DNA of 64,000 nucleotides from a candidate division WWE3 bacterium (lineage in GTDB: Bacteria > Patescibacteriota > WWE3 > JAUXAW01), in assembly GCA_030619715.1 (NCBI GenBank), contig JAUXAW010000002.1, positions 1,221-65,220 on the forward strand, in the 5' to 3' direction. Within the stretch, counting starts at the first letter, position 1. Each line of letters opens with the position of its first letter. Positions 21,956-60,621 of the stretch are shown one piece after another. The position numbers and the translations under genes are program-made. The notes below the pieces were generated by a model. That model was not told the DNA's origin and did not search any database. It was given only the letters and a program-made list of their open reading frames with translations.

Positions 21956-22040
21956 GGAGGGTTGGCAGAGTGGTAATGCAGCGGCTTGCTAAGCCGTAAT
22001 CCTGACGGATTCACAGGTTCGAATCCTGTACCCTCCGCCA
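21956..22040 (+). tRNA. tRNA-Ser (anticodon GCT)
   Basis: Manual fold: acceptor ggagggt/accctcc, anticodon stem gcggc/gccgt, loop ttGCTaa, long variable arm, T-loop ttcgaat, encoded CCA. Preceded by promoter-like ttgatt..17..tggtagtat. Confidence 0.85.
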
Positions 22041-22041
22041 T

Positions 22042-22130
22042 GGAGGAGTGGCCGAGCGGTTTATGGCGCTGGTCTTGAAAACCAGTGGCGCGAAAGCGCC
22101 TCGCAGGTTCGAATCCTGTCTCCTCCGCCA
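22042..22130 (+). tRNA. tRNA-Ser (anticodon TGA)
   Basis: Anticodon stem ctggt/accag, loop ctTGAaa, long variable arm, CCA encoded. 1 nt after the previous tRNA. Confidence 0.85.
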
Positions 22131-22144
22131 CGTAAAAAATTATC

Positions 22145-22666
22145 ATGCCCGAAGAAGTAAAAGAAATAAACAAGTTTGTTTCTGACGAAATAAAAACTTT
22201 AGTTTCTTGGAAATCGCCGCTGCGGATTTTCAAAAAGCGGGACAAAAAGCACTTTACCAATTTAATTTTGGTCGTCTTTATCATCTCCCTCGTCTTGATC
22301 TTTTTCAAAGAGTTTCTGCTGGTCGGGGTGATTCTGGCTTTGGTTTTCGTCGCCTATGTCAATTCAAGTGTTGAGCCGCCGGAATTTGAGCACAAGATCA
22401 CGACCCAGGGCTTAACCTCCGGGGGGCACACTTATCTTTGGGACGAGTTGAAGGAGTTTTGGCTGGTTAAAAAGGATCGGCAGACGGTCCTAAACATCGA
22501 TACTAAGGTGCGGTTTCCCGGACGGCTTTTCATCGTCCTTAATGAGGGAAATGTGGAGGAGGTCAGGCAGGCTCTTTCTAAGTATATTTCCTTCCGCGAG
22601 CAGCCAAAAGTCGCCTGGCTCGACCAGCTGACCGATTGGTTTTCTCAAAAACTACAACTAGGTTGA
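22145..22666 (+). CDS. hypothetical membrane protein (2 TM)
   Basis: 173-aa ORF between tRNA pairs. Hydrophobic segment LILVVFIISLVLIFFKEFLLVGVILALVFVAYV. Confidence 0.5.
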   Translation: MPEEVKEINKFVSDEIKTLVSWKSPLRIFKKRDKKHFTNLILVVFIISLVLIFFKEFLLVGVILALVFVAYVNSSVEPPEFEHKITTQGLTSGGHTYLWDELKEFWLVKKDRQTVLNIDTKVRFPGRLFIVLNEGNVEEVRQALSKYISFREQPKVAWLDQLTDWFSQKLQLG

Positions 22667-22742
22667 GCGCCCATGGCTTAATGGACAGAGCGCATCCTTG
22701 CGGAGGATGAGGTTGCAGGTTCGAATCCTGCTGGGCGCGCCA
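22667..22742 (+). tRNA. tRNA-Arg (anticodon read as GCG)
   Basis: 76 nt. Acceptor gcgccca/tgggcgc, anticodon stem catcc/ggatg (5 bp, perfect), loop ttGCGga, T-loop ttcgaat, CCA. G34 rather than the usual bacterial A34. Confidence 0.7.
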
Positions 22743-22764
22743 TCCGCCAAAGGCGGATTTGCGT

Positions 22765-22853
22765 GGAGGAGTAGCCAAGTGGTCATACGGCGCCGCTCTC
22801 GAAAAGCGTGCGGGTGAAAGCCCACGTGGGTTCGAATCCCACCTCCTCCGCCA
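22765..22853 (+). tRNA. tRNA-Ser (anticodon CGA)
   Basis: Loop ctCGAaa, long variable arm gggtgaaagcccac, T-loop ttcgaat, CCA. Preceded by small hairpin tccgccaaaggcgga. Confidence 0.8.
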
Positions 22854-22862
22854 TACCACCGT

Positions 22863-23564
22863 TTAGTTGTACACCTCCCAAATCCAAAAGGCGCGATCGA
22901 ACTCGAGCCAGGAGACTTTTGCTTTCTGACAGGCGATTTTCCAAATTTGATCCACTTTTTGGCGATCTTCGCGGTTGTAATCTTCTTTGTTAATAAATCC
23001 CCACTCATAAGTCAGTCGTAGTTTGTGGCGGTCGATTGGCATCGGGACTTTATTGATGTCAGGGTAGGGAAGTTTGAAGGTATTAACCATGCTTCGAAAA
23101 AACAAATCTCCCGTCTTTTTTCCAAACCCGCGAAACTGATAGATATTTTTTAAGACCTCCAGAGCTGCGGGTTTGTTGAAGATTTCAAAAACATCGCCGT
23201 TGAATTCGGCTAGCAGTTTTTGGGAATTGACTACCCATCTTTTGGCGGCCTCATTGGGGAAGCGGGCGTGGAGGAATTGAAGTGATAGCTTAGCCAGTCT
23301 TTTTTCGTCTGCCCTAGATAGCCTCTTGGGATCTAATAATTCCCTCCTCTCTTTAAATAATTCGTTTGCTCCTTGGTAGAGAGTCGTTGATCTCATTCCG
23401 TAATCAAGGACGGTAACGAGAAATAAGAAAACCGCCTTCTCTTGCCTGTTTGCCCAATCAGGCACCCAATCTTCGACGTTAATCTTGTTCTGGAAAACTC
23501 CTTTTCGAGCGCGAAAATCGGCCACCAACTTTTTGACAATTTGTTCTGGTGTTTTGGTTTTCAT
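22863..23564 (-). CDS. HhH-GPD superfamily DNA glycosylase-like protein
   Basis: Start taken at ATG 23564 (MKTKTPEQ...), which avoids overlap with the next gene. HhH motif FRGFGKKTGDLFF and downstream PIDRHKLR resemble the EndoIII-type hairpin and catalytic Asp region. Confidence 0.5.
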   Translation of the reverse strand: MKTKTPEQIVKKLVADFRARKGVFQNKINVEDWVPDWANRQEKAVFLFLVTVLDYGMRSTTLYQGANELFKERRELLDPKRLSRADEKRLAKLSLQFLHARFPNEAAKRWVVNSQKLLAEFNGDVFEIFNKPAALEVLKNIYQFRGFGKKTGDLFFRSMVNTFKLPYPDINKVPMPIDRHKLRLTYEWGFINKEDYNREDRQKVDQIWKIACQKAKVSWLEFDRAFWIWEVYN

Positions 23565-23568
23565 ACAA

Positions 23569-24036
23569 CTACTCCCGCCGCTTGATTTTGTTGATGTCGT
23601 CAGTTGTAATCCAAGCCGCCATTGTGCCGAAGCTGGTTTTGTCGATCGTGAAAGGTTTAACTTTTTCGACCGAATCGAGAAAGACAAAGATAGCGTAGTT
23701 TTTGTTGAGGATGTAGTTTTTAATCTCTCTGGGTATGGCTTCGAGGCCGAGGTCTTTTTTGGCGTGCTTTTTCATAACTTCTAACGCGTGATCGTTGTTT
23801 TTGATTTCGTATTGGAGAACCTTGGAGACTCTGGTTTTGACGGTAACCGGTTCTCCCGAGTTTTTGAAATAAAGATTATCTCCCGGATGAATCCGGTCCC
23901 ACGGCGTTATCTTTGATTTGTACCATCGCGACTCGGCGATCCTTGTTCCGTCTAGGATTTTAGGGATCAATCCCCACGACTTCTTCATAATCGCCACGTG
24001 GTCGCGTTTTGGTAAATCCCTAAGCGGTAGTTTCAT
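23569..24036 (-). CDS. ASCH-domain protein (PUA-like fold)
   Basis: 155 aa. ASCH-like N-terminus (ILDGTRIAESRWYK...GDNLYFK). Confidence 0.55.
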   Translation of the reverse strand: MKLPLRDLPKRDHVAIMKKSWGLIPKILDGTRIAESRWYKSKITPWDRIHPGDNLYFKNSGEPVTVKTRVSKVLQYEIKNNDHALEVMKKHAKKDLGLEAIPREIKNYILNKNYAIFVFLDSVEKVKPFTIDKTSFGTMAAWITTDDINKIKRRE

Positions 24037-24094
24037 TTCTAACCGATTTTAGCATAGTGTGAGAAGGGAAGGTGTGGAGAAGTTTTCCATTAAA

Positions 24095-24198
24095 CTCACG
24101 ATCGTGAGTTTAAATACCCCATTTTTAAAAAGTTTTGAAAGTTTGAAATGTCTTGAAACTTTCAAGAAAAGACCGTCTTTAATTCACGATCGTGAGTT
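24095..24198. promoter_or_regulatory. two direct copies of palindrome-containing motif (t)tcacgatcgtgagtt flanking an imperfect palindrome ttgaaagtttgaaatgtcttgaaactttcaag
   Basis: Read directly. Copies at 24096-24111 and 24183-24198. Lies upstream of the tRNA-Arg(CCG) promoter (tgttacaat at about 24252). Confidence 0.4.
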
Positions 24199-24270
24199 AA
24201 CCGCGCTCTATTATGAAATAGGGTGGGGATTGGGTTTTAGGGCTGGGTGTGTTACAATGTGGGTGGTTGT

Positions 24271-24346
24271 GCCTCCGTAGCTTAATGGACAGAGCGTCGG
24301 TTTCCGGAACCGAAGGTTGTGAGTTCGAGTCTCGCCGGAGGCGCCA
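24271..24346 (+). tRNA. tRNA-Arg (anticodon CCG)
   Basis: Acceptor gcctccg/cggaggc, anticodon stem tcggt/accga, loop ttCCGga, T-loop ttcgagt, CCA encoded. Confidence 0.85.
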
Positions 24347-24350
24347 CCCT

Positions 24351-24944
24351 TTACAATAAATGATCGGGGATTGGAAATTTTTTGAACTCCTCAAGTAACG
24401 GTTTCCCAAAAACAAATCTCGAAAATGCCTCGGCCTCTACTTTTGCACCGGTAAGCGCGTTGTGTGGTTTTGGCTCATCTGGCAATCCCACATAGTTCAA
24501 AATTTTGTCTAAGTTTAGAGCCGTTCTCCCTTCCTTGCTGGGTGGAGCTATGCCTCTTTTGAGGTGGTGAAAATGGCAGATGGAGTGTAAATCTACAGTT
24601 CTGTGGCCGAGCGCCCACCCGATACCGTACCTCTCCGCTGACGCTTTCAGAAAACCTTTGTCAAACGAGGGGTCTTGGCCAGCAAGCGTTTTTTCTTGCA
24701 ATTTTTCTACCCACCCAAAAAATCCTTTTATTACTTCTTCTAAAGTTTTCTTGTTGGGATCTCTAACTTCTTTCTCGGAGAAACCGTTTACTTCCAACGC
24801 TTCTTGTGATACTTCCGCACCATCCCAAATTCTACATTCTTGATAAAACTGATTTTCGGGATTGGAAAAATTAACAGCACCGATACTGACGATAGAGTGT
24901 TTTCTAAGGTCTAATCCTGTTGTTTCAACATCAACAACGATCAT
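24351..24944 (-). CDS. DEDDh 3'-5' exonuclease (DnaQ/epsilon-like)
   Basis: Start at ATG 24944 (MIVVDVETTGLD...). Exo I motif DVETTG; later H..D motifs. Confidence 0.75.
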   Translation of the reverse strand: MIVVDVETTGLDLRKHSIVSIGAVNFSNPENQFYQECRIWDGAEVSQEALEVNGFSEKEVRDPNKKTLEEVIKGFFGWVEKLQEKTLAGQDPSFDKGFLKASAERYGIGWALGHRTVDLHSICHFHHLKRGIAPPSKEGRTALNLDKILNYVGLPDEPKPHNALTGAKVEAEAFSRFVFGKPLLEEFKKFPIPDHLL

Positions 24945-24951
24945 AGGGATT

Positions 24952-25233
24952 TTACTCAAACCTGGACTTCTTCCTGATCGCCAGGACGACGAAGCCGTGC
25001 TTTTCGATTTCCTCTTTCGTATGGAACTTTTCCATCTCTTTCGTGTTGAATTTATACAGAACCTCACATTCTATTTCTCGCCCGGTGAGGTCTTTAGTTC
25101 TCTGTTTTTGTTCTTTGAGAACGAGGGTATCGCCGGGTTGGCATTCAAAATCGGCCAACCGAACCTCAAAAGGTTTCTTGCCTTCTACCACGGCTTCAAA
25201 ATATTTTTGCTGAACCTTCTTCTCGATTTTCAT
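24952..25233 (-). CDS. DUF3850-domain protein, paralog of 21559-21822
   Basis: 93 aa. QQKYFEAVVEGKKPFEVRLADFECQPGDTLVLKE. Confidence 0.65.
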   Translation of the reverse strand: MKIEKKVQQKYFEAVVEGKKPFEVRLADFECQPGDTLVLKEQKQRTKDLTGREIECEVLYKFNTKEMEKFHTKEEIEKHGFVVLAIRKKSRFE

Positions 25234-25280
25234 AACTTAATTTGCTTAGTAACCGCTTTCTTCGTATAATATCACATGCT

Positions 25281-25370
25281 GGAGGAGTCGCATAGTGGCC
25301 TAGTGCGCACGCCTGGAAAGCGTGTTTACCCGCAAGGGTATCGTGGGTTCGAATCCCACCTCCTCCGCCA
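25281..25370 (+). tRNA. tRNA-Ser (anticodon GGA)
   Basis: Anticodon stem cacgc/gcgtg, loop ctGGAaa, long variable arm, CCA encoded. Confidence 0.85.
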
Positions 25371-48754: not shown

Positions 48755-49072
48755 ATGAGAAAGAGACTTAAAAAGAGTGACTGGCGGTTTTGGGCTCTCC
48801 TTGTGCTGGGGCTCGGGACATGTGTGGTGATGGCGTGGAAGCTTATGCCTCTCAGTGTTGGAGAGTTTACCTTCGTCATTCTGATGACCATCCTAGGGAC
48901 AGCCGGTTACTGCTGGCTCCAAGTGAGAGAGGAGGAGGAAATGAACTGCAGACAAGCGGGGTCTGGTTGGGAGACCTTTCTTGTGGTCGGGGCTATTCTC
49001 ATAGTGGGGATAATCGTCGCCGCCGTGTTGGTTGCGGTCTACGGACCGGAGATTCTTGGTCCGACCATGTGA
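48755..49072 (+). CDS. small membrane protein (3 TM)
   Basis: 105-aa hydrophobic ORF with SD aagggagatgaggcgATG. Confidence 0.45.
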   Translation: MRKRLKKSDWRFWALLVLGLGTCVVMAWKLMPLSVGEFTFVILMTILGTAGYCWLQVREEEEMNCRQAGSGWETFLVVGAILIVGIIVAAVLVAVYGPEILGPTM

Positions 49073-49213
49073 GTCTCGATCAGCAAAAGCCGCTCCGGAG
49101 GAATCCAATGGAGGAATTCTTCGGGCGGCTTTTCTTCTTTTTGCCCCCCCTTCGACGAGCTCCCGCCAGAGGCGGGCAGGCAGGGCAAGCTTTTTCTGTG
49201 CTAGAATTGGGGC

Positions 49214-49552
49214 ATGGAGAAATTCTTTCACAAAAAGCTAGTTCGGGATAAACTTCCCGAAATTATCAAGGCCACTGGTGAGGAAGGTGAAGTTAGGGTA
49301 ATGGGTAAGAGGGAGTTTGAAGGCGAACTCGAAAAGAAACTTGTTGAGGAGACAAAGGAGCTTTTGGGGGTACCGAGGAAAGATCTACCAAAGGAAATGG
49401 CTGATGTTTTAGAGCTCCTCAAGTCGATAGCAGAACTTCACAAAATAGACTTCAAGTCAGTGGAAGAAAAGCAAATTGAGAAAAGAAAAGAGCGCGGCGG
49501 CTTTAAAAAGCGCCTTTTTCTTATTTGGTCCAGTCGAAAAGCAGGTGAGTAA
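49214..49552 (+). CDS. MazG-like nucleotide pyrophosphohydrolase (small all-alpha NTP-PPase)
   Basis: KLVRDKLPEII...EE..E..EL.. pattern of house-cleaning NTP pyrophosphatases. 112 aa. Confidence 0.65.
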   Translation: MEKFFHKKLVRDKLPEIIKATGEEGEVRVMGKREFEGELEKKLVEETKELLGVPRKDLPKEMADVLELLKSIAELHKIDFKSVEEKQIEKRKERGGFKKRLFLIWSSRKAGE

Positions 49553-49565
49553 TTAGCTTTTAAAG

Positions 49566-49748
49566 ATGAGGAAAATTGTTAGAGTAATTAGAGTAATTAT
49601 TGTTTCCATTTTTCTCCTCGCCGGATTTCTTGTGCTGGCGCGGCTTTTGGTCGGGGGAGGGGAGGATACTTGGATTTGCGTTGACGGAGAGTGGGTTAAA
49701 CATGGGGTTCCCTACGCTCCGATGCCGGAGAAGGGGTGTGGGATTTGA
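49566..49748 (+). CDS. small membrane-anchored protein (60 aa)
   Basis: N-terminal TM, then DGEWVKHG.PY.PMPEKGC. Confidence 0.4.
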   Translation: MRKIVRVIRVIIVSIFLLAGFLVLARLLVGGGEDTWICVDGEWVKHGVPYAPMPEKGCGI

Positions 49749-49784
49749 CAACCGAGAATTTTTTGTTTACCTTTAAATTCGAAG

Positions 49785-50006
49785 ATGTTTAAAGATAAAA
49801 AACCCTTGATAATTGGTGGAGCCCTGCTGGGCGTTCTTCTTATTGCCGGTGGGGGCTTTTTCTTTTGGCGTCAGCGGAAGCCGGCCGTTGTTCCGGAGGA
49901 AGAGACGCGGACGGAAAGAAGCGAACCTCTGGTCGTCCCACCTTCGGCCGAAGAGATGCCCTACGAAACCTATCAAACCATAGATGGTAGCTTTTGTAAG
50001 GAGTAG
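49785..50006 (+). CDS. small membrane-anchored protein (73 aa)
   Basis: N-terminal TM (LIIGGALLGVLLIAGGGFFFW), acidic tail. Confidence 0.4.
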   Translation: MFKDKKPLIIGGALLGVLLIAGGGFFFWRQRKPAVVPEEETRTERSEPLVVPPSAEEMPYETYQTIDGSFCKE

Positions 50007-51236: not shown

Positions 51237-51902
51237 ATGCAAAAGAACAGTCTTATCAAAAGGTACTTTCTGCGGTACATAACCTCAATTTTCGCAGTAT
51301 GCTTCCTAAGCTTGGTTGTGGCAGCATCAGCCGTTGCGGTTGGGGTGTACAGACTTTCCCCGGATCGATTAGACTTAGCTCCCTTATCCATGGTTGGGGT
51401 GGCGGGGTTAACGCTGATACTGACGATCCTGCACGTTGTGGTCGCTAGACTCCTCGTCAACTACAACCTCAAGGAGTCGGGGCTCTACTTCCGGGTCAAG
51501 GATGGGAAGGTCGACGCGGCCAACCCCCAGTGGGGGAAGGATGGGGTTTGGGTCAGCTTGCCTCGGACCGACCAGCCGCACGAGATTGGGTTTCCTCGTT
51601 ACGAGGTTCCCATCTGGAGCGAACCCATAGTCCTGAAGGTCTTTTTCAGGGATGTGTTTAATCCCCAGGAGGTGTACGAGAAGGTCTTCGCCGTTGGGTA
51701 TGGTAGCTTCGATCTCTGGTTGCGAGATAGGTTTCTTGCAGCAGTAGCGGGCTCTCCAGTTCAGGATGCGCTCCGCCTCACTCGCCAGCGCTCGTCGGAT
51801 GAGTTGGAGAAGGCGTTGCTTGGATTGGAATTCTCCGGCGGCCTGGAAAATATCGGCTATGTTGAGGCCACCGCTACCACGAGTGTGACGGTCCGCTTCT
51901 AG
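51237..51902 (+). CDS. membrane protein, paralog A (2-3 N-terminal TM + conserved soluble domain with SLPRTDQP motif)
   Basis: 221 aa. Shares NP.WGK....SLPRTDQP.E......P....P.V.LKVFF...F.P.EVY with 52184-52909. Confidence 0.55.
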   Translation: MQKNSLIKRYFLRYITSIFAVCFLSLVVAASAVAVGVYRLSPDRLDLAPLSMVGVAGLTLILTILHVVVARLLVNYNLKESGLYFRVKDGKVDAANPQWGKDGVWVSLPRTDQPHEIGFPRYEVPIWSEPIVLKVFFRDVFNPQEVYEKVFAVGYGSFDLWLRDRFLAAVAGSPVQDALRLTRQRSSDELEKALLGLEFSGGLENIGYVEATATTSVTVRF

Positions 51903-52183: not shown

Positions 52184-52909
52184 ATGAAAAACAGAATATT
52201 CGATTGGGGCAAAAGGTACTTTCTGATAACGGCTAAGGCTCAGGGCGGTTCTTTTAGGATGGGCTTCCTCATTGGCTTGCTATTGTTCGCGATCACCGGG
52301 TTCGCGACGATAACCTTGCAGCTCGCAGGTCACGACATCGGTCCCGGTGTAGCGTTCAGCTGTCTCGGGTCCGCTCTGGTGCTAGGGATCGTGAATACCC
52401 GCGTCGTTGATCGCTACATCTGCTACAGCGAGGAGCCGGGGCTTTTCTTCCTGACCAACGGTGGGCCCATCCGTCTAGACGAAGAGGGAAGAGCTATTGG
52501 GGCAAACCCGCTGTGGGGGAAGGGGCTTTTCATCAGTCTTCCCCGAACCGACCAGCCGTACGAGAAGCAGGTTCTCCGGAGGGATTTTCCTGAAACGAAA
52601 ATCCCCTTGGTAGTGTTGAGGGTCTTCTTCAAAGGAGAGTTTGATCCTCACGAAGTGTACCAAGGTATCTACAGATCCGGATTCGATCCCAGTAGCTTCA
52701 ACCGTTCGTTGTCGTCGGCGTTCCTGCACGCGGTGCGGAATGCCGGCGAGGAGGAGGTGTTTTATTCGCAGGCCTATGAGCTCCCTCCGGATGAGATAGA
52801 GGCAAAGCTGGGAAAAGTGCGTTCGCACTTCACCGCTTGGAGAGATTTCAGCAACATCGACCACATCGATCTTGAAGTCTCTCCGACTGTGACAATCAGC
52901 TTCAACTAA
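52184..52909 (+). CDS. membrane protein, paralog B
   Basis: 241 aa. See 51237-51902. Confidence 0.55.
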   Translation: MKNRIFDWGKRYFLITAKAQGGSFRMGFLIGLLLFAITGFATITLQLAGHDIGPGVAFSCLGSALVLGIVNTRVVDRYICYSEEPGLFFLTNGGPIRLDEEGRAIGANPLWGKGLFISLPRTDQPYEKQVLRRDFPETKIPLVVLRVFFKGEFDPHEVYQGIYRSGFDPSSFNRSLSSAFLHAVRNAGEEEVFYSQAYELPPDEIEAKLGKVRSHFTAWRDFSNIDHIDLEVSPTVTISFN

Positions 52910-53608: not shown

Positions 53609-55762
53609 ATGAAAAGTCCGCTCATTTTCCGCCTGCTTTTTCTAAATTTGGGGATAAGCTCCCTTCTTTTTCAGACCCTGCTCTTGCGGGAGCTGGTCGT
53701 CAGTTTTTATGGTAACGAGTTTTTTGTCGGAGTGGTTTTGGCCCTCTGGCTTTTTTGGACGGCGGTTGGAAGCTTCGCAGCGAGTAGGATTAAAAAGGAT
53801 CCGAGTAGGATTAAGAGGGATCTTGTTGGTGTTCATGTCTTTTTATCCTTCTTAATCCCTGTTTTATCCTTTTTAATTAGATTCCTCAAAATTCCCGGCA
53901 CAACCGGGGGAGAGATTCCCGATTTTTTTAGCTCTTTAATTTTTGTCGGAGCACTTTTGGCCCCCAGCGGTTTGGCTTTTGGTAGTATTTTTACCCTCGG
54001 CGCCAAGATTTGGGTGCAGGTCGGCGAGGCCTATTTCTGGGAAACTTTGGGCCATATATTAATCGGCTTGGTTTTCAGCTTCTTCTTAGTGACGGTACCG
54101 ACCCTCCCGGTGGCGTTTTTAATTTCGGCTTTAAATCTGGCTTTGGTGTCTCTACTGCTTCCGAAAGGGTCTAAACTGCCGAAAACTTTGTGTTTCACAC
54201 TTGGTCTGCTTCTCGTTTTCTTTAGTGTCTTTTGCGGCAAGGAGATTGAGTTTTTAAGTCAAGGCTGGCGTTTTCCCAATTTGGTTCATCAGGAAAATTC
54301 TTTCTACGGTCACATCGCCGTAACCGAAAGTGAGGACCAATACAATTTTTACGAAAGCGGACTTTTGGTCGGAGCCGACGAGGATTATTATGGAAGTGAG
54401 TTTCTGGTCCACCCGACCCTGATTCAACACTCTGACCCACGTCAGGTTCTCCTCATCGGTGGGGGATGGAACGGGGTTTTGGCCGAGATTTTGAAATATC
54501 CCAGCGTGGAAAAGATTGATTACGTTGAGCTCGACCCGCAATTTTTGAGGATCGTCGAGAAGTATCTTCCAGAAGATCTCAAAAAAGCTTTCTCCGACCC
54601 AAGAGTCCAGAAACACTTTGTTGACGGGCGGTATTTTTTGAAGCACGCGGACGGCACCTACGATGTGGTCATTTTTAACCTTCCCAACCCCTCGACGGCT
54701 CTAATCAACCGCTTCTACACAAAAGAATGCTTTGAAGAGGTTAAAAGAATTACAGACCCTAAGGGTCTGTTTGCTTTGCCGTTATCGACTCCGACGGATT
54801 ACCTCAGTGCGGAAACGGAAAATTTGCTGGCCTCGGTTTATAAGACTTTAAAAAGGGAGTTTCCCCAGGTTCGAATTTTGGCCGAGGAAAATGTATTGTT
54901 TCTAGCCGCGAAAGACGCGGACGCGAAAAACGCGAAAAATTTGAACGTCTCAGAAGTTCTAAAACATTGGAAAGATTTGAAACTTGAGACCTCGTTTTTG
55001 ACCACCGCTGAGCTGGAATATCGTTTCACAAACGATAAAAATACTCGGATTCAGCAGATTCTTGAGGCCAATCGGGAGGCAGCGCTGAATTCTGATTTTT
55101 ATCCCGCGGCTTATTTTTACCAAACACTCTTCTGGCAGACAAAGTTCAGCTTCCTTTTTGCCAAGATTCTAGCTAGCTTGCAACAGCCGTTGTTCTGGGT
55201 TTTGGTCAGTCTTCTGCTTTCCGCCGGCGGCCTTCTCTTTGTTTGGAGAAAACCCTCACTTTTGAGCACGTCCAATGTAGCAGTTTTGACCGTGGGTTTG
55301 GGGGGCCTGACCCTGATGGCGATGGAGATAATTCTAATCTTTCTTTTCCAAACCATCTTGGGCTTTGTTTACTCACGGATAGCACTATTAATGGCTCTAA
55401 TCCTGGCGGGTCTAGCTCTCGGAAATTTTGGGGCCCGGAGGTTTCTACGAACAGTGAGTAGGGGACTGTTGTTAGTTCAAATTCTGATTGTTTTCTATCT
55501 TTTCTCCTTCTTGCAATTTATTCCCCATCTGACAAGCGAGATTCATTTTTATATTTTGGGGATAGTGGCCGGAGTTTTGGTGGGGCTTATTTTCCCGCTG
55601 GCAAGTAATTACACCGCCGACCTCGCAGGCTCGTTTTTCGGAGCGCTGCTGCCCTCGTTGTTCCTAATCCCTCTCTTCGGTGTCTTTAATACCATTACCC
55701 TTCTCGCTGCCCTAAACCTTATTGGGACCCTGCTTCTTCTTCGGCGAAGATTTGGGCGGTGA
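53609..55762 (+). CDS. membrane-embedded spermidine/spermine synthase-like protein (polyamine aminopropyltransferase family fused to a polytopic membrane domain)
   Basis: Many TM helices on both sides of a central soluble domain. VLLIGGGWNGVLAEILKYPSVEKIDYVELDP...VVIFNLPNP resembles the SpeE SAM-dependent fold. Confidence 0.7.
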   Translation: MKSPLIFRLLFLNLGISSLLFQTLLLRELVVSFYGNEFFVGVVLALWLFWTAVGSFAASRIKKDPSRIKRDLVGVHVFLSFLIPVLSFLIRFLKIPGTTGGEIPDFFSSLIFVGALLAPSGLAFGSIFTLGAKIWVQVGEAYFWETLGHILIGLVFSFFLVTVPTLPVAFLISALNLALVSLLLPKGSKLPKTLCFTLGLLLVFFSVFCGKEIEFLSQGWRFPNLVHQENSFYGHIAVTESEDQYNFYESGLLVGADEDYYGSEFLVHPTLIQHSDPRQVLLIGGGWNGVLAEILKYPSVEKIDYVELDPQFLRIVEKYLPEDLKKAFSDPRVQKHFVDGRYFLKHADGTYDVVIFNLPNPSTALINRFYTKECFEEVKRITDPKGLFALPLSTPTDYLSAETENLLASVYKTLKREFPQVRILAEENVLFLAAKDADAKNAKNLNVSEVLKHWKDLKLETSFLTTAELEYRFTNDKNTRIQQILEANREAALNSDFYPAAYFYQTLFWQTKFSFLFAKILASLQQPLFWVLVSLLLSAGGLLFVWRKPSLLSTSNVAVLTVGLGGLTLMAMEIILIFLFQTILGFVYSRIALLMALILAGLALGNFGARRFLRTVSRGLLLVQILIVFYLFSFLQFIPHLTSEIHFYILGIVAGVLVGLIFPLASNYTADLAGSFFGALLPSLFLIPLFGVFNTITLLAALNLIGTLLLLRRRFGR

Positions 55763-57275
55763 AGACGAAGATTTGGGTGGTGGGGTCTTGCCAGCAAGAA
55801 GAGGAAAGACCTATTTTCTGGGTACAAAGTTCACTCATAAATTTGTTTAAATCCCAGTTGTTTTCGGTCGCCACATGGGGCAAAAAGACACCGTGACGGT
55901 TACTTCTACTTAGCGAGACCCCGTGTTTGCCGACCTCAATGTTGTAGGGGTCAAAGATTCTTCGCCGCGGGGACAAAACGGAGATTTCGATTTCAATTGC
56001 TTCAAGCTCGTTGGGTTTAACCGGAGTGAAGCGACGGTCTTTAGTCGCGGCGGCGATCGTCATCTGTTGGACCACCTGCCAAAGAGGTTCCTCGGGTTCA
56101 AAGCGGCCGATGCAGCCGTGCAGCGCTCCATTTTTGTGGAGGGTGACAAAAGCCCCCAGTGGGGTGTTGAGGAACTCGTGCTCAATTTCGACCCCCGGGG
56201 TTTGATTGGTTGCAATAAAGGTCTTCAGGGTTTGGCGGGAAATTTTTAAAAGCTCCTGCTTCTCTTCCTCATTGAGTTCGGTGCCAAACCTTTCACCATA
56301 AAAAGCGATCGCGGCATAACCAACGACCCGATTTTTGTCTCCGGCAGGCAGGTCGCCAGAATTGGCATAATTCAAAAGTTGGATATCAGAAAGCCCTAAA
56401 TTTTCGGACAGGATCAGCCCCGTCTTGATTGCTCCCGCCCCGCAGGCGGCGGTTTGTAAATTGGGGATTCCACTTTGAGGTAGCTGCTCGACCAGCTGGG
56501 AGAATTTTTCCAAATCGTTTTCAAGAATGCTGTTAATAATCTGCCGGTCGGCCTGTGTGGCGTCTTCGTAGTTGGGATAGTGGGAAAGGTCACTGCTGAT
56601 AACGATTAGGGTGTAGGGGTTAGTGTGTTTGGCCAGAGCACTTGCCAAGATTTGGGCCGTTTCCGTCGTCTGGTCACCTAATATAACAGGCACGATCTGA
56701 AAGTCTTTGAGCGTTTTTTGGAGGAGGGGAATTTCTACCTCTAAGGAGTGCTCTTTGTCATGATACTGGGGGCCGGCGAAGATAAGGGGGCTCTCGCTGG
56801 TTAGTTTTTGAGCAAGGATTTCGTCAATTGGAATCTGACCGAGCGGGGTTTCAAAGAAACCCTCGGTGTAGACAGCGGCACCGTCAAAATGATAATGGTG
56901 GGAGTTGCCGATGATGACGATGGTCGAATATTCTCTATCTTTAATTTCGGAGAAAGCATAAGCGGCTACTTGGCCGGAAAATTGGTAGCCGGCGTGGGGG
57001 ACGACGATAATCTTCGGGGGTTTGGGGGTTAGGGGAGAGGGGATAGTGACGAGGAATCCATCAATTTGGGCGGAGAGTTCCTCTCTGTTTCCCGGATAAA
57101 AAGTGCCGGCGGCGGCCGGTTTTCTGACGTTCTTAGTTTCGACCTTGGTTTCAGTCGCGGGGAGAACTTCTGCAGGCGATAGCGGCTCTTTTTGCAGATT
57201 TTCGTAAACAAAAATCCCGCCGATGGCGAGGGCGGCAGTGGCCGCAATGAGTAAGAGGTATTTTTTTACTTCCAT
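55719..57275 (-). CDS. AmmeMemoRadiSam system protein B (Memo-like) fused to an AMMECR1 domain, with N-terminal TM anchor
   Basis: Memo motif VVPHAGYQFSGQVAAYAF in the N-terminal half. AMMECR1 motif GAFVTLHKNGALHGCIG in the C-terminal half. Adjacent to a radical SAM gene. Confidence 0.75.
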   Translation of the reverse strand: MEVKKYLLLIAATAALAIGGIFVYENLQKEPLSPAEVLPATETKVETKNVRKPAAAGTFYPGNREELSAQIDGFLVTIPSPLTPKPPKIIVVPHAGYQFSGQVAAYAFSEIKDREYSTIVIIGNSHHYHFDGAAVYTEGFFETPLGQIPIDEILAQKLTSESPLIFAGPQYHDKEHSLEVEIPLLQKTLKDFQIVPVILGDQTTETAQILASALAKHTNPYTLIVISSDLSHYPNYEDATQADRQIINSILENDLEKFSQLVEQLPQSGIPNLQTAACGAGAIKTGLILSENLGLSDIQLLNYANSGDLPAGDKNRVVGYAAIAFYGERFGTELNEEEKQELLKISRQTLKTFIATNQTPGVEIEHEFLNTPLGAFVTLHKNGALHGCIGRFEPEEPLWQVVQQMTIAAATKDRRFTPVKPNELEAIEIEISVLSPRRRIFDPYNIEVGKHGVSLSRSNRHGVFLPHVATENNWDLNKFMSELCTQKIGLSSSCWQDPTTQIFVFTAQIFAEEEAGSQ

Positions 57276-58411
57276 ATTCCTGGAACCTCAACGTCGCACA
57301 AACCCTCGTTAAGATGATTCTCAATCACGGTATGGCCTTTGCGGACGATCAGGGCTTCGCCGTTGGTCGGACAGTAGGTGGTCTGGCCCTCAACGTCGAT
57401 GATATTTCCGGTATAAACATAATTTAGTCCGACGTCGAGACAAATCTGGCGGGCTTCTTTGACCGTTTTCTCCGGGGTTGCGGGGACATTGAGCAGTTTG
57501 TAATCGGGATGAAAGCGGGAAAAATGCAGCGGCACATCGGGACCGAGATTCTCCAGAATCCACTGACACATCTCTTTAATCTCCTCCGGATCGTCATTTT
57601 TGCCGGGGACCACAAGATTAACAATTTCCAGCCAGGTTCCTTCCTCTTTGATGATTTTTAAGTTTTCAAGCACCGGCTGGAGCTTTCCGCCTACAATCTC
57701 TCGGTAGAAATCCTCGTTGAATCCCTTAAGATCAATCTTGATCGCGTCCAAAAGGGGCAGTAGCTCTTTCAGTGGTTCAGGGTTGACATAACCGCTGCTG
57801 ATGACGACATTTTTCAGACCCTTTTCCCGCGCTATTTTGGCCGTATCGTACATATATTCATAAAAGACCATCGGCTCGGAGTAGGTGTAGGCGATGCTGG
57901 TTGCGCCGGACTGGAGGGCCCGCTCAACTACTTTTTCCGGAGGCAGGTCAATGCTTTTTAAATCCTCGGGGAAGCGTTGGGCAATATCCCAGTTTTGGCA
58001 GTATTTGCAGGCGAGGGAACAGCCGCCGGTGGCGATGGAGTAGGCGTTGCTTCCGGGGAGAAAATGATTAAACGGTTTTTTCTCGATCGGGTCAACGTGG
58101 ATGGAAACTGGTTGCCCGTAAACTAAAGAGACCAACTCACCATTTTGGTTTTCACGAACTTTACAAATTCCTCTTTGGCCTTCGGCAAGGATACAGCGGT
58201 TGGGGCAGAGGTTACACTGAACCCGACCACCGTCTAATTTTTCGTAAAACCGCGCTTCCTGATAGACGGTCGCCGACAGCGTTTCCCCCTCTTTTTCAAC
58301 AGCTTCTTCGCCTCCTTTTCTCAAAACCAAAAAGGAAACCCCCACGCCGAAAATAATAATCGCTAAGCCAATAAGATATTTTTTCATCGATTCAATTATA
58401 CCATTTCGCAA
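57266..58411 (-). CDS. AmmeMemoRadiSam system radical SAM enzyme, with N-terminal TM anchor
   Basis: GGCSLACKYCQNW (Cx3Cx2C). Additional Cys cluster CNLCPNRC...C. 381 aa. Confidence 0.75.
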   Translation of the reverse strand: MRNGIIESMKKYLIGLAIIIFGVGVSFLVLRKGGEEAVEKEGETLSATVYQEARFYEKLDGGRVQCNLCPNRCILAEGQRGICKVRENQNGELVSLVYGQPVSIHVDPIEKKPFNHFLPGSNAYSIATGGCSLACKYCQNWDIAQRFPEDLKSIDLPPEKVVERALQSGATSIAYTYSEPMVFYEYMYDTAKIAREKGLKNVVISSGYVNPEPLKELLPLLDAIKIDLKGFNEDFYREIVGGKLQPVLENLKIIKEEGTWLEIVNLVVPGKNDDPEEIKEMCQWILENLGPDVPLHFSRFHPDYKLLNVPATPEKTVKEARQICLDVGLNYVYTGNIIDVEGQTTYCPTNGEALIVRKGHTVIENHLNEGLCDVEVPGIWK

Positions 58412-58430
58412 TCTGCTAAAATAGAAAGTG

Positions 58431-58871
58431 ATGGCGGAAATTGCTTGGCTCGATTGTCCGTATGGAAATGTTAATGACCCCTATCCCGGGCAGTGCGAGC
58501 TTTACACCGATACCAACAGTAACCAAATCTGCGACCACAGTGAGCCCCCCCTCTCTCCGATGAAAAGCTTTGTTTTGTGGGCAAGCTTTGTTGTAGTAGC
58601 TTTATACTTTCTCCACTGGTATCTTTCTCATAAAACCACAATCGGAAAAAGATTTAAGTTTCTTAGCCGCGTGTGGTTTCGTTATTTTTGGAATTTGGTT
58701 TTACTTTTGAGTTTTATTCCCGCCGCCGTTTCCGGTGTTCTGTGGGTATTTGGGGTTACAAGTTTTGATTTTAATCTCTGGCACAATAAAGCAGGCATTA
58801 TCTTCACCATCGTCGTCGCTCTCCACCTCCTCAAACGCTTTCGCCACATCCTCAACTTTCCGCGCTGGTAG
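58431..58871 (+). CDS. membrane protein with Cys-rich N-terminus ([14 protein letters not shown]...C)
   Basis: 3 TM helices after a Cys motif. Divergent from the radical SAM gene. Confidence 0.45.
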
Positions 58872-58953
58872 GGAGTGTCCGCGGTGTCAATTGTGTCGGT
58901 GGTGTCAGTGGGGGCGAGTGCCCCTTAGATGTTACGTAACAGGTCGTGTTTGT

Positions 58954-59161
58954 TTGACAGAATCCTGTAAAAGTTGTAAAATTTACTCGGCCTTTTAAAA
59001 CCTGCCCAGGACAAAAACGTCTTGGGTTTTTAAGGTTTTAGCGGTGCTCGCACCGCTCGTACATTAACAATTGAGTAGGGTGAGGTCGAGTCTAGTCTGC
59101 GCTGTGCGCTAATGGGACAAACCTGCTAGATAGGAGCAAGACTATTATTAGGGAGGAGGAA
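58954..59161 (+). promoter_or_regulatory. promoter (TTGACA-17-TGTAAAAT) and about 165-nt structured leader upstream of small-peptide cluster
   Basis: Hairpins cccaggacaaaaacgtcttggg and agcggtgctcgcaccgct read directly. No ORF. Confidence 0.4.
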
Positions 59162-59308
59162 ATGAGCGAGTTCTTGAGAGAAAACCTTTCAGCTCTCTGG
59201 TGTGAATGGTGGCCACTCATGTTGGGCAAAATGATCGAACTGGGAATCATTATTGCCTACGTTATTGAAAATAAGGAAGAGCTGATAAAGGGAAGGGTAA
59301 AAAGGTAA
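59162..59308 (+). CDS. candidate 48-aa hydrophobic peptide (MSEFLRENLSALWCEWWPLMLGKMIELGIIIAYVIENKEELIKGRVKR)
   Basis: Strong SD agggaggaggaaATG. Below the ORF-track cutoff. Confidence 0.4.
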   Translation: MSEFLRENLSALWCEWWPLMLGKMIELGIIIAYVIENKEELIKGRVKR

Positions 59309-59369
59309 TGGCCGTTCGGCAACTCATTTAGGATAAGCCGGACAAATAAGCTTCAAAGGAGGGAAGAAA

Positions 59370-59612
59370 ATGGCTGAGGTTTTAAGGGGGTTCGGTAAGA
59401 TGAAAGGATGGGTGGTATGTGTGGTGATAGGCACAGGCATCGCGTGCATCATCCCGGCTCTCTCTGGAGATCTCCAGTCCGCATTTGCAATAGCAGCCAC
59501 AGGAGGCGTGTTCATTGTTGGGGCTCTCCTCCTCGTTGCTTTGGGTACAGTATTCGGTTGTCGAGAGGCAAAGCGGATCGTCGAGGAGATGAGGGAGAGA
59601 AACAGGGAGTGA
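59370..59612 (+). CDS. small membrane protein (80 aa, 2 TM)
   Basis: SD caaaggagggaagaaaATG. GVFIVGALLLVALG hydrophobic core. Charged C-terminal tail. Confidence 0.45.
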   Translation: MAEVLRGFGKMKGWVVCVVIGTGIACIIPALSGDLQSAFAIAATGGVFIVGALLLVALGTVFGCREAKRIVEEMRERNRE

Positions 59613-59671
59613 CCGAGGCCAAAAGAAGCTCGCCTTGAGAGCTAGAAAATCTTAGAAGGAGGTGGACGAGA

Positions 59672-59758
59672 TGGAATGGCTAAGAGAAAACTGGCAGTGG
59701 TTGCTGTGGCTGGGACTCCTCGGCCTTCTCTCTCTCGCTGTGCCCGCAGCGTTGTAGT
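59672..59758 (+). CDS. candidate 28-aa hydrophobic peptide (MEWLRENWQWLLWLGLLGLLSLAVPAAL)
   Basis: SD gaaggaggtggacgagATG. Shares the LRENW/L motif with the 48-aa peptide. Confidence 0.35.
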
Positions 59759-59926
59759 GAGAGAACACTGCGAGTCTGAGGAGTAGACCACCATCACGGG
59801 GGCGGTGGTCTAGATTGAGAAGGAGGTTCGAATCCTCCCTTGACAAGCCTGCTGACGGTTTGAAAACGCGAAAAAAACTTCAGACCCGAGGCAGGCTTTT
59901 ATCTTTAGAAAATTGTGGCGCGCGGT

Positions 59927-60020
59927 AAGAACCTGCTCGCTACGCTCGCAGAACCTTGCATTTGAGCATAGCCTCCGCTTCGCTACGACTATTAGCTCAA
60001 AAGTGAATTGCGCTATTACC
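59927..60020. repeat. second copy of the about 130-nt element seen at 811-948
   Basis: Shared aagaacctgctcgct.cgctcgcagaaccttgcatttgagca.agc...agctcaaaagt...gcgctatt. Confidence 0.45.
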
Positions 60021-60021
60021 G

Positions 60022-60621
60022 CTACCGTAGGACGGCGAGAGTACTTTGGAGGACGAAATAGAGGCCGACGAGGACTCCGGAGACGCGGGCCAATTTTTGC
60101 ATCCAGGCAAATCTGGTGAAGACACCCAGCAAAGCCGCGGGAACGATATAAACGCTGGTGCCGAGGAAGAACATCAGGAAATATAAAACGGCGGCGAAGG
60201 CCCCTTGCAAGTTGAAAACGTAAGTTAGGGAAGCCAGAAACGGGGGACAGATGTTGACGCCGGTTAGGAATCCCAAAAGAAATATCCATTTAATTTTTTG
60301 GAAGGGGAGAAAGCTGCAGAATTTTTTGTCAATTGTGCCCAAGGAATAAAGAATCATCAAAAGCCCGGTCCAGATATTGCCGAGAGCAACGATTTGGTGA
60401 ATAGTGACACTGGTGACTTGTTCTCCCAACCAGCCGAGGGCAAGCCCAAAAGTGAGATAGCCCAAAAGTCTTCCCAGAGAAAATTCAAGAATAACTCTTA
60501 AACTCGATTTTGGTGTCCGGCTTTGGGACAAAAGGTAGGGGACAACAATCGGTAGGCAGAGACCGAGGCAGTAGACGCCGACGGAGAGACCAGCTAAAAA
60601 GCCTGCTGTAAGGGTTTCCAT
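60022..60621 (-). CDS. CcdA/DsbD-family thiol-disulfide transporter-like membrane protein
   Basis: 6 TM helices. Cys pair in TM1 (GVYCLGLCLP) as in cytochrome c biogenesis CcdA-type proteins. Confidence 0.55.
   Translation of the reverse strand: METLTAGFLAGLSVGVYCLGLCLPIVVPYLLSQSRTPKSSLRVILEFSLGRLLGYLTFGLALGWLGEQVTSVTIHQIVALGNIWTGLLMILYSLGTIDKKFCSFLPFQKIKWIFLLGFLTGVNICPPFLASLTYVFNLQGAFAAVLYFLMFFLGTSVYIVPAALLGVFTRFAWMQKLARVSGVLVGLYFVLQSTLAVLR

What the first reader, a model, noticed from the sequence alone, without database searches (positions are those of the whole stretch)
58954..59760. Cluster of tiny hydrophobic peptides with shared LRENW motif behind a long structured leader
Three consecutive ORFs (48, 80 and 28 aa) each have a near-perfect SD. 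The 48- and 28-aa peptides both begin M-x(1-3)-LRENL/W followed by a Trp-rich TM segment (MSEFLRENLSALWCEWW... and MEWLRENWQWLLW...). The operon follows TTGACA-17-TGTAAAAT and an about 165-nt leader with two strong hairpins. Such arrays resemble membrane-active toxin, bacteriocin or signalling peptide loci. Two of the three are below standard gene-calling thresholds.
Basis: seen in the sequence. Interest (0 to 1): 0.55.

Follow-up and report, generated by a model that had tools for sequence, protein, structure and literature searches.

The report
Strain-variable small-membrane-peptide micro-operon island
A 1.1-kb piece of extra DNA sits between two conserved genes of an uncultured Patescibacteria (CPR) bacterium and has its own promoter, three tiny membrane-peptide genes and a terminator; the first peptide is kept in related strains and the others are swapped, but what they do is unknown.

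Summary
Three ORFs lie at 59162-59308 (48 aa), 59370-59612 (80 aa) and 59671-59757 (28 aa). Each follows a GGAGG Shine-Dalgarno site. Upstream is a consensus promoter (58954-58982) and a structured leader of about 173 nt; downstream is a long terminator hairpin (59845-59898).

The main new result is context. The unit is a roughly 1.14-kb island (about 58872-60010) inserted between two convergent conserved genes, MJ0753_N-like and DsbD_2. Seven related Microgenomates-type lineages have an empty site.

Three occupied alleles exist:
- window: [48][80][28]
- L002: [52][63][78]
- L003: [52] only

Promoter, 5' hairpin, first peptide and 3' hairpins are constant, at about 94% nt identity against 70-90% for flanking genes. 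The downstream ORFs are unrelated orphans, exchanged at conserved SD-bearing junction repeats.

All window peptides have a TM-grade hydrophobic segment. None is cationic or amphipathic. None matches Pfam, NCBIfam, PHROGs, PADLOC or PDB.

No double-glycine leader, adjacent transporter, antisense promoter, endolysin or adjacent integrase was found. The bacteriocin, toxin or signalling reading therefore stays untested.

Best reading: an accessory micro-operon for small integral membrane proteins, recently exchanged among strains, with a cassette-like variable part. A conflict or immunity role is inferred only.

The parts
58872..60010 (.). The inserted island: extra DNA between the stop of the MJ0753_N-like gene (58871) and the 3' end of the convergent DsbD_2 gene (60022).
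   Evidence: The two genes abut or overlap at their 3' ends, 0-63 nt apart, in L126-L130, L133, L135 and L136. The site is occupied only in the window/L001, L002/L134 and L003.
58954..58982 (+). Sigma-70-type promoter TTGACA-17-TAAAAT.
   Evidence: Scored 11/12 and is the best site in a relaxed scan. It is nearly invariant in all three alleles.
58995..59041 (+). Conserved 5'-terminal stem-loop. It looks like an intrinsic terminator: a 9-bp GC-rich stem followed by U5, extended by A-tract/U-tract pairing.
   Evidence: z = -4.0, -3.5 and -2.9 in the three alleles. All 51 pair cells are standard pairs, with one UA<->CG compensatory change and two one-sided changes that keep pairing.
59040..59057 (+). 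Window-specific GC hairpin in the leader (AGCGGTGC-TCGC-ACCGCT).
   Evidence: Absent from L002 and L003.
59091..59132 (+). 43-nt leader indel.
   Evidence: Present in the window and L003, absent in L002 (alignment A1).
59151..59159 (+). SD of ORF48 (GGGAGGAGG).
   Evidence: Conserved in L002 and L003. The core is not sequestered in the leader MFE.
59162..59308 (+). ORF48, the constant core peptide (MSEFLRENL..., one hydrophobic segment, charged C-tail).
   Evidence: An intact homologue of 52 aa is present in L002 and L003. Codon-usage score of 0.236 equals the host-gene mean. There are no indels, while the leader has three.
59331..59380 (+). Junction J2: 3' hairpin, then AAATAAGCTT, then the SD and the first 3-4 codons (M-A/S-E-V).
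   Evidence: 94% identical to L002 1949-2000, where it precedes an unrelated 78-aa ORF.
59370..59612 (+). ORF80, a variable cassette ORF with two hydrophobic segments and a charged C-tail.
   Evidence: It is an orphan. The codon score of 0.031 is below the 5th percentile of host genes. The weak CopD hit is below the Pfam cutoff.
59628..59663 (+). Junction J1, right half of repeat R: GCTCGCCTTGAGAGCTAGAA..TTAGAAGGAGG, including the SD.
   Evidence: Matches two places in L002 (1695-1727 and 2256-2289) and one in L003. It occurs once in the window.
59671..59757 (+). ORF28, a variable cassette ORF (MEWLRENW..., one hydrophobic segment).
   Evidence: Absent in L002 and L003. Not called by public annotation.
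59784..59815 (+). Decayed remnant of the left part of repeat R. In L002 and L003 this part encodes the C-terminus EDTSEV* of the 52-aa peptide.
   Evidence: From my own reading of the sequences.
59821..59837 (+). SD/anti-SD hairpin GGAGG-TTCGAAT-CCTCC, which looks like a tRNA T-arm. It marks the constant right end of the cassette region.
   Evidence: Present in all three alleles and folds in all of them. The 11-mer GGTTCGAATCC occurs otherwise only in the window's true tRNAs.
59845..59905 (+). Long terminator hairpin followed by a T-run.
   Evidence: Inverted repeat I3. It folds in all alleles. Identity to L002 is 88%.
59920..59994 (+). 75-nt insertion of a short dispersed repeat. It is not part of the operon.
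   Evidence: Absent in L002 and L134. A second copy lies at window about 808-885.

Best explanation
This is an accessory micro-operon carried on a roughly 1.14-kb island. The island was inserted between two convergent, conserved membrane-protein genes in one narrow clade of a Microgenomates-type CPR bacterium.

Shown:
- The island is absent from seven related lineages.
- It brings its own consensus promoter, a conserved 5'-terminal stem-loop, SD-led small ORFs and a terminal hairpin plus terminator.
- Its constant parts are more similar between strains than the flanking genes.
- The ORFs after the first one differ completely between alleles and are bounded by conserved junction repeats (J1/R and J2) that contain the SD.

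Inferred:
- Transcription starts near 58989.
- The 5' stem-loop stabilises or attenuates the transcript.
- Ribosomes load at each SD, which is exceptional in a largely SD-less, leaderless genome.
- The products are small integral membrane proteins: a constant 48-52-aa single-pass peptive core is not implied; rather, a constant 48-52-aa single-pass peptide plus 0-2 interchangeable ones.
- The variable ORFs are exchanged by recombination at the junction repeats. This could be RecA-type exchange between strains, or Campbell-type insertion of a small circle at R.

Most speculative step: the locus acts in membrane-level conflict, such as toxin/immunity, exclusion or host-interaction. That would explain the strain variability and the apparent recent spread.
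For: Island and empty sites.

Three alleles with constant ends and variable middle.

In L002 an 83-bp direct repeat flanks a 561-bp two-ORF segment that L003 lacks.

Mosaicism: the L003 flank is 96% identical to the window, while its peptide gene is 97% identical to L002.

Constant parts are 94% identical against 87% for flanking CDS (Fisher p=1e-4). Flanking pS is 0.19-0.38 against 0 in ORF48.

Two alleles occur in sister samples.

SD rarity in the host: 6 of 49 genes.

Promoter. Conserved 5' hairpin with pairing-preserving changes.

TM-grade hydrophobicity with low amphipathicity.

ORF48 has host-like codon usage and no indels. The ORF regions show no excess RNA structure.
Against: - There is no expression data.
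- ORF48 shows 6 nonsynonymous and 0 synonymous differences to L002, so purifying selection on the protein is not demonstrated.
- ORF80 has atypical codon usage and no homologue anywhere.
- A 28-codon open frame after an ATG is not improbable by chance.
- In L002 and L003 the last J1 SD precedes no ORF, so an SD in this locus does not by itself prove a gene.
- Only three alleles are known.
- No family, defence-system or structure match gives a function.
Confidence: 0.5

Rival explanations
1. Decaying inserted DNA with fortuitous ORFs. The island would be a remnant of a mobile element or an illegitimate insertion in a harmless 3'-3' intergenic site. The ORFs would not be functional genes, and allele differences would reflect indel churn.
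For: - The region has many indels and small hairpin insertions, a decayed remnant of R (59784-59815), and a dispersed 75-nt repeat.
- The N:S ratio in ORF48 looks neutral.
- ORF80 and the L002 ORFs are orphans, and ORF80 has poor codon usage.
- GGAGG followed by ATG also occurs about 20 times at non-gene positions in the window.
Against: - The constant parts are more conserved than the flanking coding DNA.
- The consensus promoter, the 5' hairpin with compensatory change and the terminator are retained in all alleles.
- Three non-overlapping SD-ATG ORFs lie on one strand within about 600 nt, in a genome where SD sites are rare.
- ORF48 is intact and indel-free in three alleles.
Confidence: 0.2
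2. Type I toxin-antitoxin-like module or modules. Small hydrophobic toxins would be kept silent by a structured leader and an antisense RNA, with the island persisting by addiction.
For: - The peptides are small TM peptides with charged tails.
- The leader is long and structured.
- The presence/absence polymorphism and apparent recent spread fit a selfish element.
Against: - No antisense promoter-like site was found inside the island.
- The SD of ORF48 is not sequestered in the predicted leader fold.
- Three ORFs in one operon, each with an exposed strong SD, is atypical.
- Most of the leader is not conserved.
Confidence: 0.1
3. Secreted bacteriocin or signalling peptides with immunity proteins.
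For: - It is a multi-peptide operon of Trp-rich small peptides.
- The N-terminal motif M-x-E-phi-L-R(-E-N) is shared and could be a leader.
- The content varies between strains, as in bacteriocin loci.
Against: - Net charge is 0, +2 and -1, and -4 and -5 in the two L002 peptides scored; the hydrophobic moment is low.
- There is no double-glycine or signal-peptidase motif in the sequences.
- No transporter, protease or modification enzyme is adjacent. The neighbours are the AmmeMemoRadiSam genes, MJ0753_N, DsbD_2, His_Phos_1 and UppP, which are also present where the island is absent.
- Part of the shared N-terminus belongs to the recombining junction J2.
Confidence: 0.08
4. Integron-like cassette array without integrase (CALIN-like). 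R would be an attC-like folded recombination site, and the ORFs would be promoterless cassettes expressed from the island promoter.
For: - R is an imperfect hairpin of about 61 nt with outer inverted repeats TCTAGACTT/AAGTTTAGA and unpaired bases.
- The L002 allele looks like the insertion of a 561-bp circle carrying one R.
- There is one upstream promoter and the cassettes have none.
Against: - The R boxes match RYYYAAC and GTTRRRY at only 5 of 7 positions each (my reading).
- No recombinase is among the 17 neighbouring long ORFs (44.9-63.4 kb) scanned against Pfam.
- J2 is a different junction.
- Very small genomes lack integrons (PMC4889954).
- Homologous recombination explains the data without a dedicated site.
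Confidence: 0.07
5. Phage-derived moron or holin-like remnant. ORF80 (two hydrophobic segments, charged C-tail, Met1/Met11) would be a holin-type protein.
For: Its topology and size fit class II holins. The SD-led genes look foreign in this genome.
Against: There is no endolysin or other phage gene nearby. There is no PHROGs hit at E<0.01 and no match in viral contigs or phage genomes.
Confidence: 0.05

Closest known systems
Strain-variable bacteriocin/immunity loci and orphan toxin-immunity cassette arrays (for example streptococcal blp-type loci and CDI/Rhs orphan modules). The comparison is from my own knowledge, not tested here.
   Same: A constant upstream part is followed by interchangeable small genes. 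Conserved junction sequences allow recombination between alleles. Alleles are mosaic among co-occurring strains, and many products are small membrane proteins.
   Different: There is no recognisable toxin domain, double-glycine leader, transporter or regulator. The peptides are not cationic. The whole locus is only 1.1 kb, and every ORF is an orphan.
Integron cassette arrays / CALIN (Cury et al. 2016, PMC4889954).
   Same: One promoter serves an array of promoterless ORFs separated by hairpin-forming repeats. One allele looks like the integration of a small circle at the repeat.
   Different: There is no IntI, the R boxes are non-canonical, the two junctions are of different types, and the genome is tiny. 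Homologous recombination is sufficient to explain the data.
Type I toxin-antitoxin toxins (Hok, Fst, TisB, Ibs, Ldr classes). The comparison is from my own knowledge.
   Same: Hydrophobic single-pass peptides of 28-50 aa with short charged ends, behind a long structured 5' UTR, in an accessory intergenic location.
   Different: No antisense RNA promoter was found, the SD is exposed, the ORFs form a three-gene operon, and there is no sequence similarity to any family.
5'-terminal stabilising stem-loops and leader attenuators of bacterial mRNAs (for example the ompA and ermC leaders). The comparison is from my own knowledge.
   Same: A stable hairpin begins within a few nucleotides of the inferred 5' end and is conserved with pairing-preserving substitutions.
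   Different: This hairpin also has the full anatomy of an intrinsic terminator (GC stem plus U5), and there is no room upstream for a sensor. Its role is untested.

Membership tests
Class II / leaderless bacteriocin locus | The peptide has a double-glycine or Sec leader, or is a cationic amphipathic leaderless peptide. | tested here: not met
   There is no GG motif in the sequences. Net charge is 0, +2 and -1, and the hydrophobic moment is at most 0.26 over the hydrophobic parts.
Class II / leaderless bacteriocin locus | A dedicated transporter, protease or immunity genes are adjacent. | tested here: not met
   The flanking genes are AmmeMemoRadiSam, MJ0753_N, DsbD_2, His_Phos_1 and UppP. They are also present where the island is absent. 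The nearest ABC ATPase is about 13 kb away.
Type I toxin-antitoxin | A small hydrophobic toxin ORF under 60 aa. | tested here: met
   ORF48 and ORF28 each have one TM-grade segment.
Type I toxin-antitoxin | An overlapping or adjacent antisense sRNA gene. | tested here: not met
   There is no promoter-like site on the minus strand inside the island, either in the standard scan or in a relaxed scan. The promoter model is sigma-70 only, so this is not absolute.
Type I toxin-antitoxin | Toxin translation is blocked by 5' UTR structure that sequesters the SD. | tested here: not met
   The GGAGG core of the ORF48 SD is unpaired in the leader MFE and centroid.
Integron / CALIN | At least two attC sites with R''/L''/L'/R' boxes (RYYYAAC...GTTRRRY), scored by the attC covariance model. 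| tested here: inconclusive
   R folds as an imperfect hairpin of about 61 nt, but each box matches at only 5 of 7 positions by eye. The IntegronFinder attC model is not available here. The definition is from PMC4889954.
Integron / CALIN | An IntI tyrosine recombinase nearby (complete integron). | tested here: not met
   No Phage_integrase hit among the 17 neighbouring long ORFs scanned, which span about 44.9-63.4 kb of the window. The rest of the window was not scanned.
Phage holin | A small protein with one or more TMDs and a charged C-terminus. | tested here: met
   ORF80 has two hydrophobic segments and the tail CREAKRIVEEMRERNRE.
Phage holin | An adjacent endolysin or a phage context. | tested here: not met
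   There are no phage genes nearby, no PHROGs hit, and no viral or phage DNA or protein match.
Known structured RNA (Rfam) | A match at or above a family's gathering score. | tested here: not met
   Only tRNAs were found in the window. In 58850-60050 the best match has E=0.24, far below gathering.
tRNA / tRNA-derived att site | A cloverleaf, or a 3' tRNA half matching a tRNA of the genome. | tested here: not met
   ARAGORN finds nothing at the locus in the window, L001, L002 or L003. No tRNA in the window has the 3' end CCTCCCTTGACA. The rest of the genome is not available.

The most novel reading that the evidence does not exclude
The island is a miniature expression-and-capture platform for small ORFs in a CPR bacterium. 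A fixed promoter and a fixed first gene would be followed by slots, delimited by a hairpin repeat (R/J1, J2) that ends in a ready-made Shine-Dalgarno site. Any short ORF recombined in, possibly as a circle of about 0.5 kb at R, would then be translated at once in a genome that otherwise rarely uses SD sites. The SD/anti-SD T-arm-like hairpin would cap the empty last slot. This would be an integrase-independent analogue of an integron, or one that uses a recombinase encoded elsewhere, working on micro-proteins.
Probability: 0.12. Interest if true: 0.75.

Novelty: new variant of a known kind. Interest (0 to 1): 0.42.

Why it matters
CPR/Patescibacteria have tiny genomes, depend on host cells, and carry many unannotated small membrane proteins. 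This locus is polymorphic by presence/absence and by cassette content, and its only cargo is micro-proteins.

If the peptides are made, it is a compact and tractable example of how such organisms diversify their membrane or surface repertoire between co-occurring strains. It would also show how foreign-style SD-led genes are expressed in a mostly leaderless genome.

If the junction repeats turn out to be dedicated recombination sites, the locus would be a new small-gene capture system.

If the peptides are not made, it is simply a hot spot of intergenic insertions and of little further interest.

Tried and rejected
None carries the extended motif or any island similarity.
2. The genome-contig scan with DsbD_2 found only 45%-identity relatives (Saccharibacteria, Treponema). 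In the Saccharibacteria locus the conserved genes are contiguous with no island.
3. Viral-contig scans with J1, J2, ORF48 and ORF80 found nothing. ORF28 was too short for the tool.
4. Pfam, NCBIfam, PHROGs, PADLOC and PDB sequence searches of the three window peptides and the three L002 peptides gave nothing above noise; NCBIfam was run on the window peptides only, and PDB on ORF48, ORF80 and the L002 78-aa ORF only.
5. Phage and plasmid BLAST of the whole island gave no match.
6. The idea that CTAG is a recombination core was rejected, because its local density is within the window's range.
7. The idea that synonymous-site conservation in ORF48 reflects RNA structure was rejected, because z is about -1.
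8. The idea of a tRNA or tmRNA at the T-arm-like hairpin was rejected by ARAGORN and Rfam.
9. No terminal inverted repeats or target-site duplication were seen at the island borders by eye.
10. Apparent similarity of the L002 63-aa ORF to window 49813-49887 falls in a non-gene frame and was discarded.
11. Structure prediction was not run. Single helical peptides without an alignment would give uninformative fold matches.
Full report
**1. What is in the sequence**

The three ORFs exist as described: 59162-59308 (48 aa), 59370-59612 (80 aa) and 59671-59757 (28 aa), all on the + strand and non-overlapping.

Each is preceded by an extended Shine-Dalgarno site. The motif LREN[LW] occurs in the six-frame translation of the whole 64-kb window only at the N-termini of the 48-aa and 28-aa ORFs. 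A shared exact 4-mer near both N-termini arises in 0.3-0.5% of composition-preserving shuffles. A general local-alignment test is not significant (p=0.17), because both peptides are rich in Trp and Leu.

The promoter TTGACA-17-TAAAAT (58954-58982) is the best sigma-70-like site in the region. From an inferred start near 58989 the leader is about 173 nt, and it folds better than shuffles (z=-3.3).

All three peptides contain a TM-grade hydrophobic segment. They are neutral or nearly so and have low helical hydrophobic moments. They therefore look like integral membrane micro-proteins rather than secreted cationic lytic peptides.

One correction to the finding: the 48-aa and 80-aa ORFs are called in public annotations. 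Only the 28-aa ORF is missed.

**2. Host and translation background**

Named homologues of the neighbouring DsbD_2 gene come from Patescibacteria, the Microgenomates group and Shapirobacteria, so the organism is a CPR bacterium.

In the window only 6 of 49 long genes have GGAGG upstream. Many have a TAAAAT or TATAAT box a few bases before the ATG, which suggests leaderless mRNAs.

Three strong SD sites in a row are thus unusual for this genome. However, GGAGG followed by ATG also occurs about 20 times at non-gene positions, so an SD alone is not proof of a gene.

**3. The locus is an inserted island**

In relatives the MJ0753_N-like gene and the DsbD_2 gene are convergent. Their 3' ends overlap or lie 0-63 nt apart, with nothing between them. 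This holds for relatives whose DsbD_2 is 69-84% identical: L126-L130, L133, L135 and L136. In a Saccharibacteria relative the same conserved genes are contiguous.

In the window about 1.14 kb (about 58872-60010) lies between the two genes. L133 has the same C-terminal gene ends as the window but an empty site, which fixes the borders.

I saw no terminal inverted repeats or target duplication. No recombinase or phage gene is among the 17 neighbouring long ORFs scanned against Pfam.

**4. Three alleles with constant ends and a variable middle**

Only one homologue of the 48-aa peptide exists among 5.8 billion proteins. It is a 52-aa protein with 87% identity. It lies at the same site in L002 (GCA_030602025.1) and L003 (a Logan contig).

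The allele contents are:

| Allele | ORF content |
|---|---|
| window | [48][80][28] |
| L002 | [52][63][78] |
| L003 | [52] only |

The parts constant in all alleles are the promoter, the first leader hairpin, ORF48/52 with its SD, a GGAGG-TTCGAAT-CCTCC hairpin and the long terminator hairpin.

The 80-aa, 28-aa, 63-aa and 78-aa ORFs are mutually unrelated. ORF80 has no homologue in 5.8 billion proteins or in 1.84 billion cluster representatives.

The variable ORFs are bounded by conserved junction DNA:
- J1 (GCTCGCCTTGAGAGCTAGAA..TTAGAAGGAGG) is at window 59628-59663, occurs twice in L002 and once in L003.
- J2 is at window 59331-59380 and L002 1949-2000. It includes the SD and the first 3-4 codons.

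The same junction precedes different ORFs. J2 precedes ORF80 or ORF78. J1 precedes ORF28, ORF63 or nothing.

In L002 an 83-bp direct repeat R, which contains J1 and the last codons EDTSEV*, flanks a 561-bp two-ORF segment that L003 lacks. This is the product expected from deletion between repeats, or from Campbell-type insertion of a circle carrying one R.

The window retains a decayed copy of the left part of R at 59784-59815 (my reading).

**5. Evidence for recent exchange**

Constant island parts are about 94% identical between the window and L002, while flanking genes are 70-90% identical. The contrast is significant: 18/320 against 157/1197 differences, Fisher p=1e-4.

Flanking genes have pS of 0.19-0.38. 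ORF48 has 0 synonymous and 6 nonsynonymous differences over 46 aligned codons.

The ORF regions show no excess RNA structure (z between -1.1 and +1.0). RNA-level constraint is therefore an unlikely cause, and recent exchange among strains is the simpler one.

Mosaicism agrees with this. The flank of L003 is 96% identical to the window, but its peptide gene is 97% identical to L002.

The L002 allele is present, at 100% identity over a 955-bp contig covering the island's right end and DsbD_2, in SRR14872664. The window allele is in SRR14872668. Two alleles therefore occur in sister samples.

**6. The leader**

Only the first hairpin is conserved. It has a 9-bp GC-rich stem, a 6-nt loop and U5, and is extended by A-tract/U-tract pairing.

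It is significantly stable in all three alleles (z=-4.0, -3.5 and -2.9). All four substitutions in paired columns keep pairing, including one UA<->CG double change. With three sequences this is supportive, not significant.

It begins within a few nucleotides of the inferred 5' end and has the anatomy of an intrinsic terminator. I read it as a 5' stabiliser or a constitutive attenuator, and I cannot tell which.

**7. Are the ORFs genes?**

For:
- The operon anatomy and SD enrichment.
- ORF48 is intact and indel-free in three alleles, while the leader has three indels.
- ORF48's codon score equals the host mean, and the annotated frame is the best of six for ORF48 and ORF28; for ORF80 it ties with one antisense frame.

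Against:
- The N:S ratio in ORF48 looks neutral.
- ORF80's codon score is below the 5th percentile of host genes.
- A 28-codon open frame is not rare.
- J1's SD precedes no ORF at the array end in L002 and L003.

My estimates that each ORF is translated, which are judgement and not computed, are about 0.7 for ORF48, 0.55 for ORF80 and 0.45 for ORF28.

**8. Comparison with known systems**

No family or defence-system model and no solved structure matches. No Rfam family matches.

- Bacteriocin features are not met: there is no leader motif, cationic amphipathic character or adjacent transporter.
- Type I toxin-antitoxin features are half met. Small hydrophobic ORFs are present. No antisense promoter was found and the SD is exposed.
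- The holin reading has ORF80's topology only, with no lysin or phage context.
- The integron/CALIN reading has one promoter, hairpin repeats between promoterless ORFs and a circle-like insertion. Against it, the R boxes match the consensus at only 5 of 7 positions, no integrase is nearby, and very small genomes are reported to lack integrons (PMC4889954).

**9. Verdict**

It is an accessory, recently exchanged micro-operon island with one constant small membrane peptide and a cassette-like variable tail.

Its biochemical role is unknown. I favour a membrane-level conflict, immunity or exclusion role because of the strain variability, but that step is inference.

Novelty lies in the architecture and the host, not in any demonstrated function. 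Interest is moderate.

Noticed in passing
window 59920-59994 and window about 808-885: A short dispersed repeat (core ...CGCTCGCAGAACCTTGCATTTGAGCA..., with TCAAAAGT at its 3' edge) is inserted downstream of the island terminator in the window. It is absent in L002 and L134. A second copy lies near the start of the window. It may be a MITE-like element.
   Followed up: partly
whole window, gene starts (for example 50173, 60712, 62370, 37825): Most genes lack an SD and have a TAAAAT or TATAAT box 5-10 nt upstream of the start codon, suggesting widespread leaderless mRNAs. Only 6 of 49 genes have GGAGG.
   Followed up: partly
window 51237-51902 and 52184-52909: Two adjacent paralogous genes of unknown function (29% identity, E=1e-23) share a nearly identical translation-initiation region, aaaataaggaggagag. 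Neither has a Pfam hit.
   Followed up: partly
window 59821-59837; L002 about 2283-2299; L003 about 783-805: The hairpin GGAGG-TTCGAAT-CCTCC is a perfect tRNA T-arm look-alike. In L003 the loop is TTCAAAT and the stem has 8 bp. The 11-mer GGTTCGAATCC occurs otherwise only in true tRNAs of the window, and no tRNA is predicted here.
   Followed up: partly
window 58878-58912; empty sites in L135 and L136: GTGTCA occurs three times between the MJ0753_N stop and the island promoter. Relatives without the island carry TTGTCACAAA repeats at the same gene junction. This may be a protein-binding motif.
   Followed up: no
window 55719-58871 and 60022-60621; L004 and L130: The gene set Memo/AMMECR1 fusion, AmmeMemoRadiSam radical SAM enzyme, MJ0753_N/DUF4405-like Cys-rich membrane protein and DsbD_2 stays linked from Microgenomates-type relatives to Saccharibacteria. 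This suggests that the AmmeMemoRadiSam system works with a membrane redox pair.
   Followed up: no
window 48755-50006: A run of small predicted membrane ORFs (105, 60 and 73 aa) lies next to a MazG-like 112-aa gene. They are unrelated to the island peptides.
   Followed up: no
window 21956-25370: A cluster of six tRNA genes (four Ser, two Arg) is interspersed with short ORFs. All tRNA genes in the window encode CCA.
   Followed up: no
L002 918-1331 against window 58428-58871 and L003 1-373: The MJ0753_N-like gene is far more diverged between L002 and the window (64% aa, 70% nt) than its neighbours are. L003 is 96% identical to the window here. This points to recombination breakpoints at or near the island.
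   Followed up: partly
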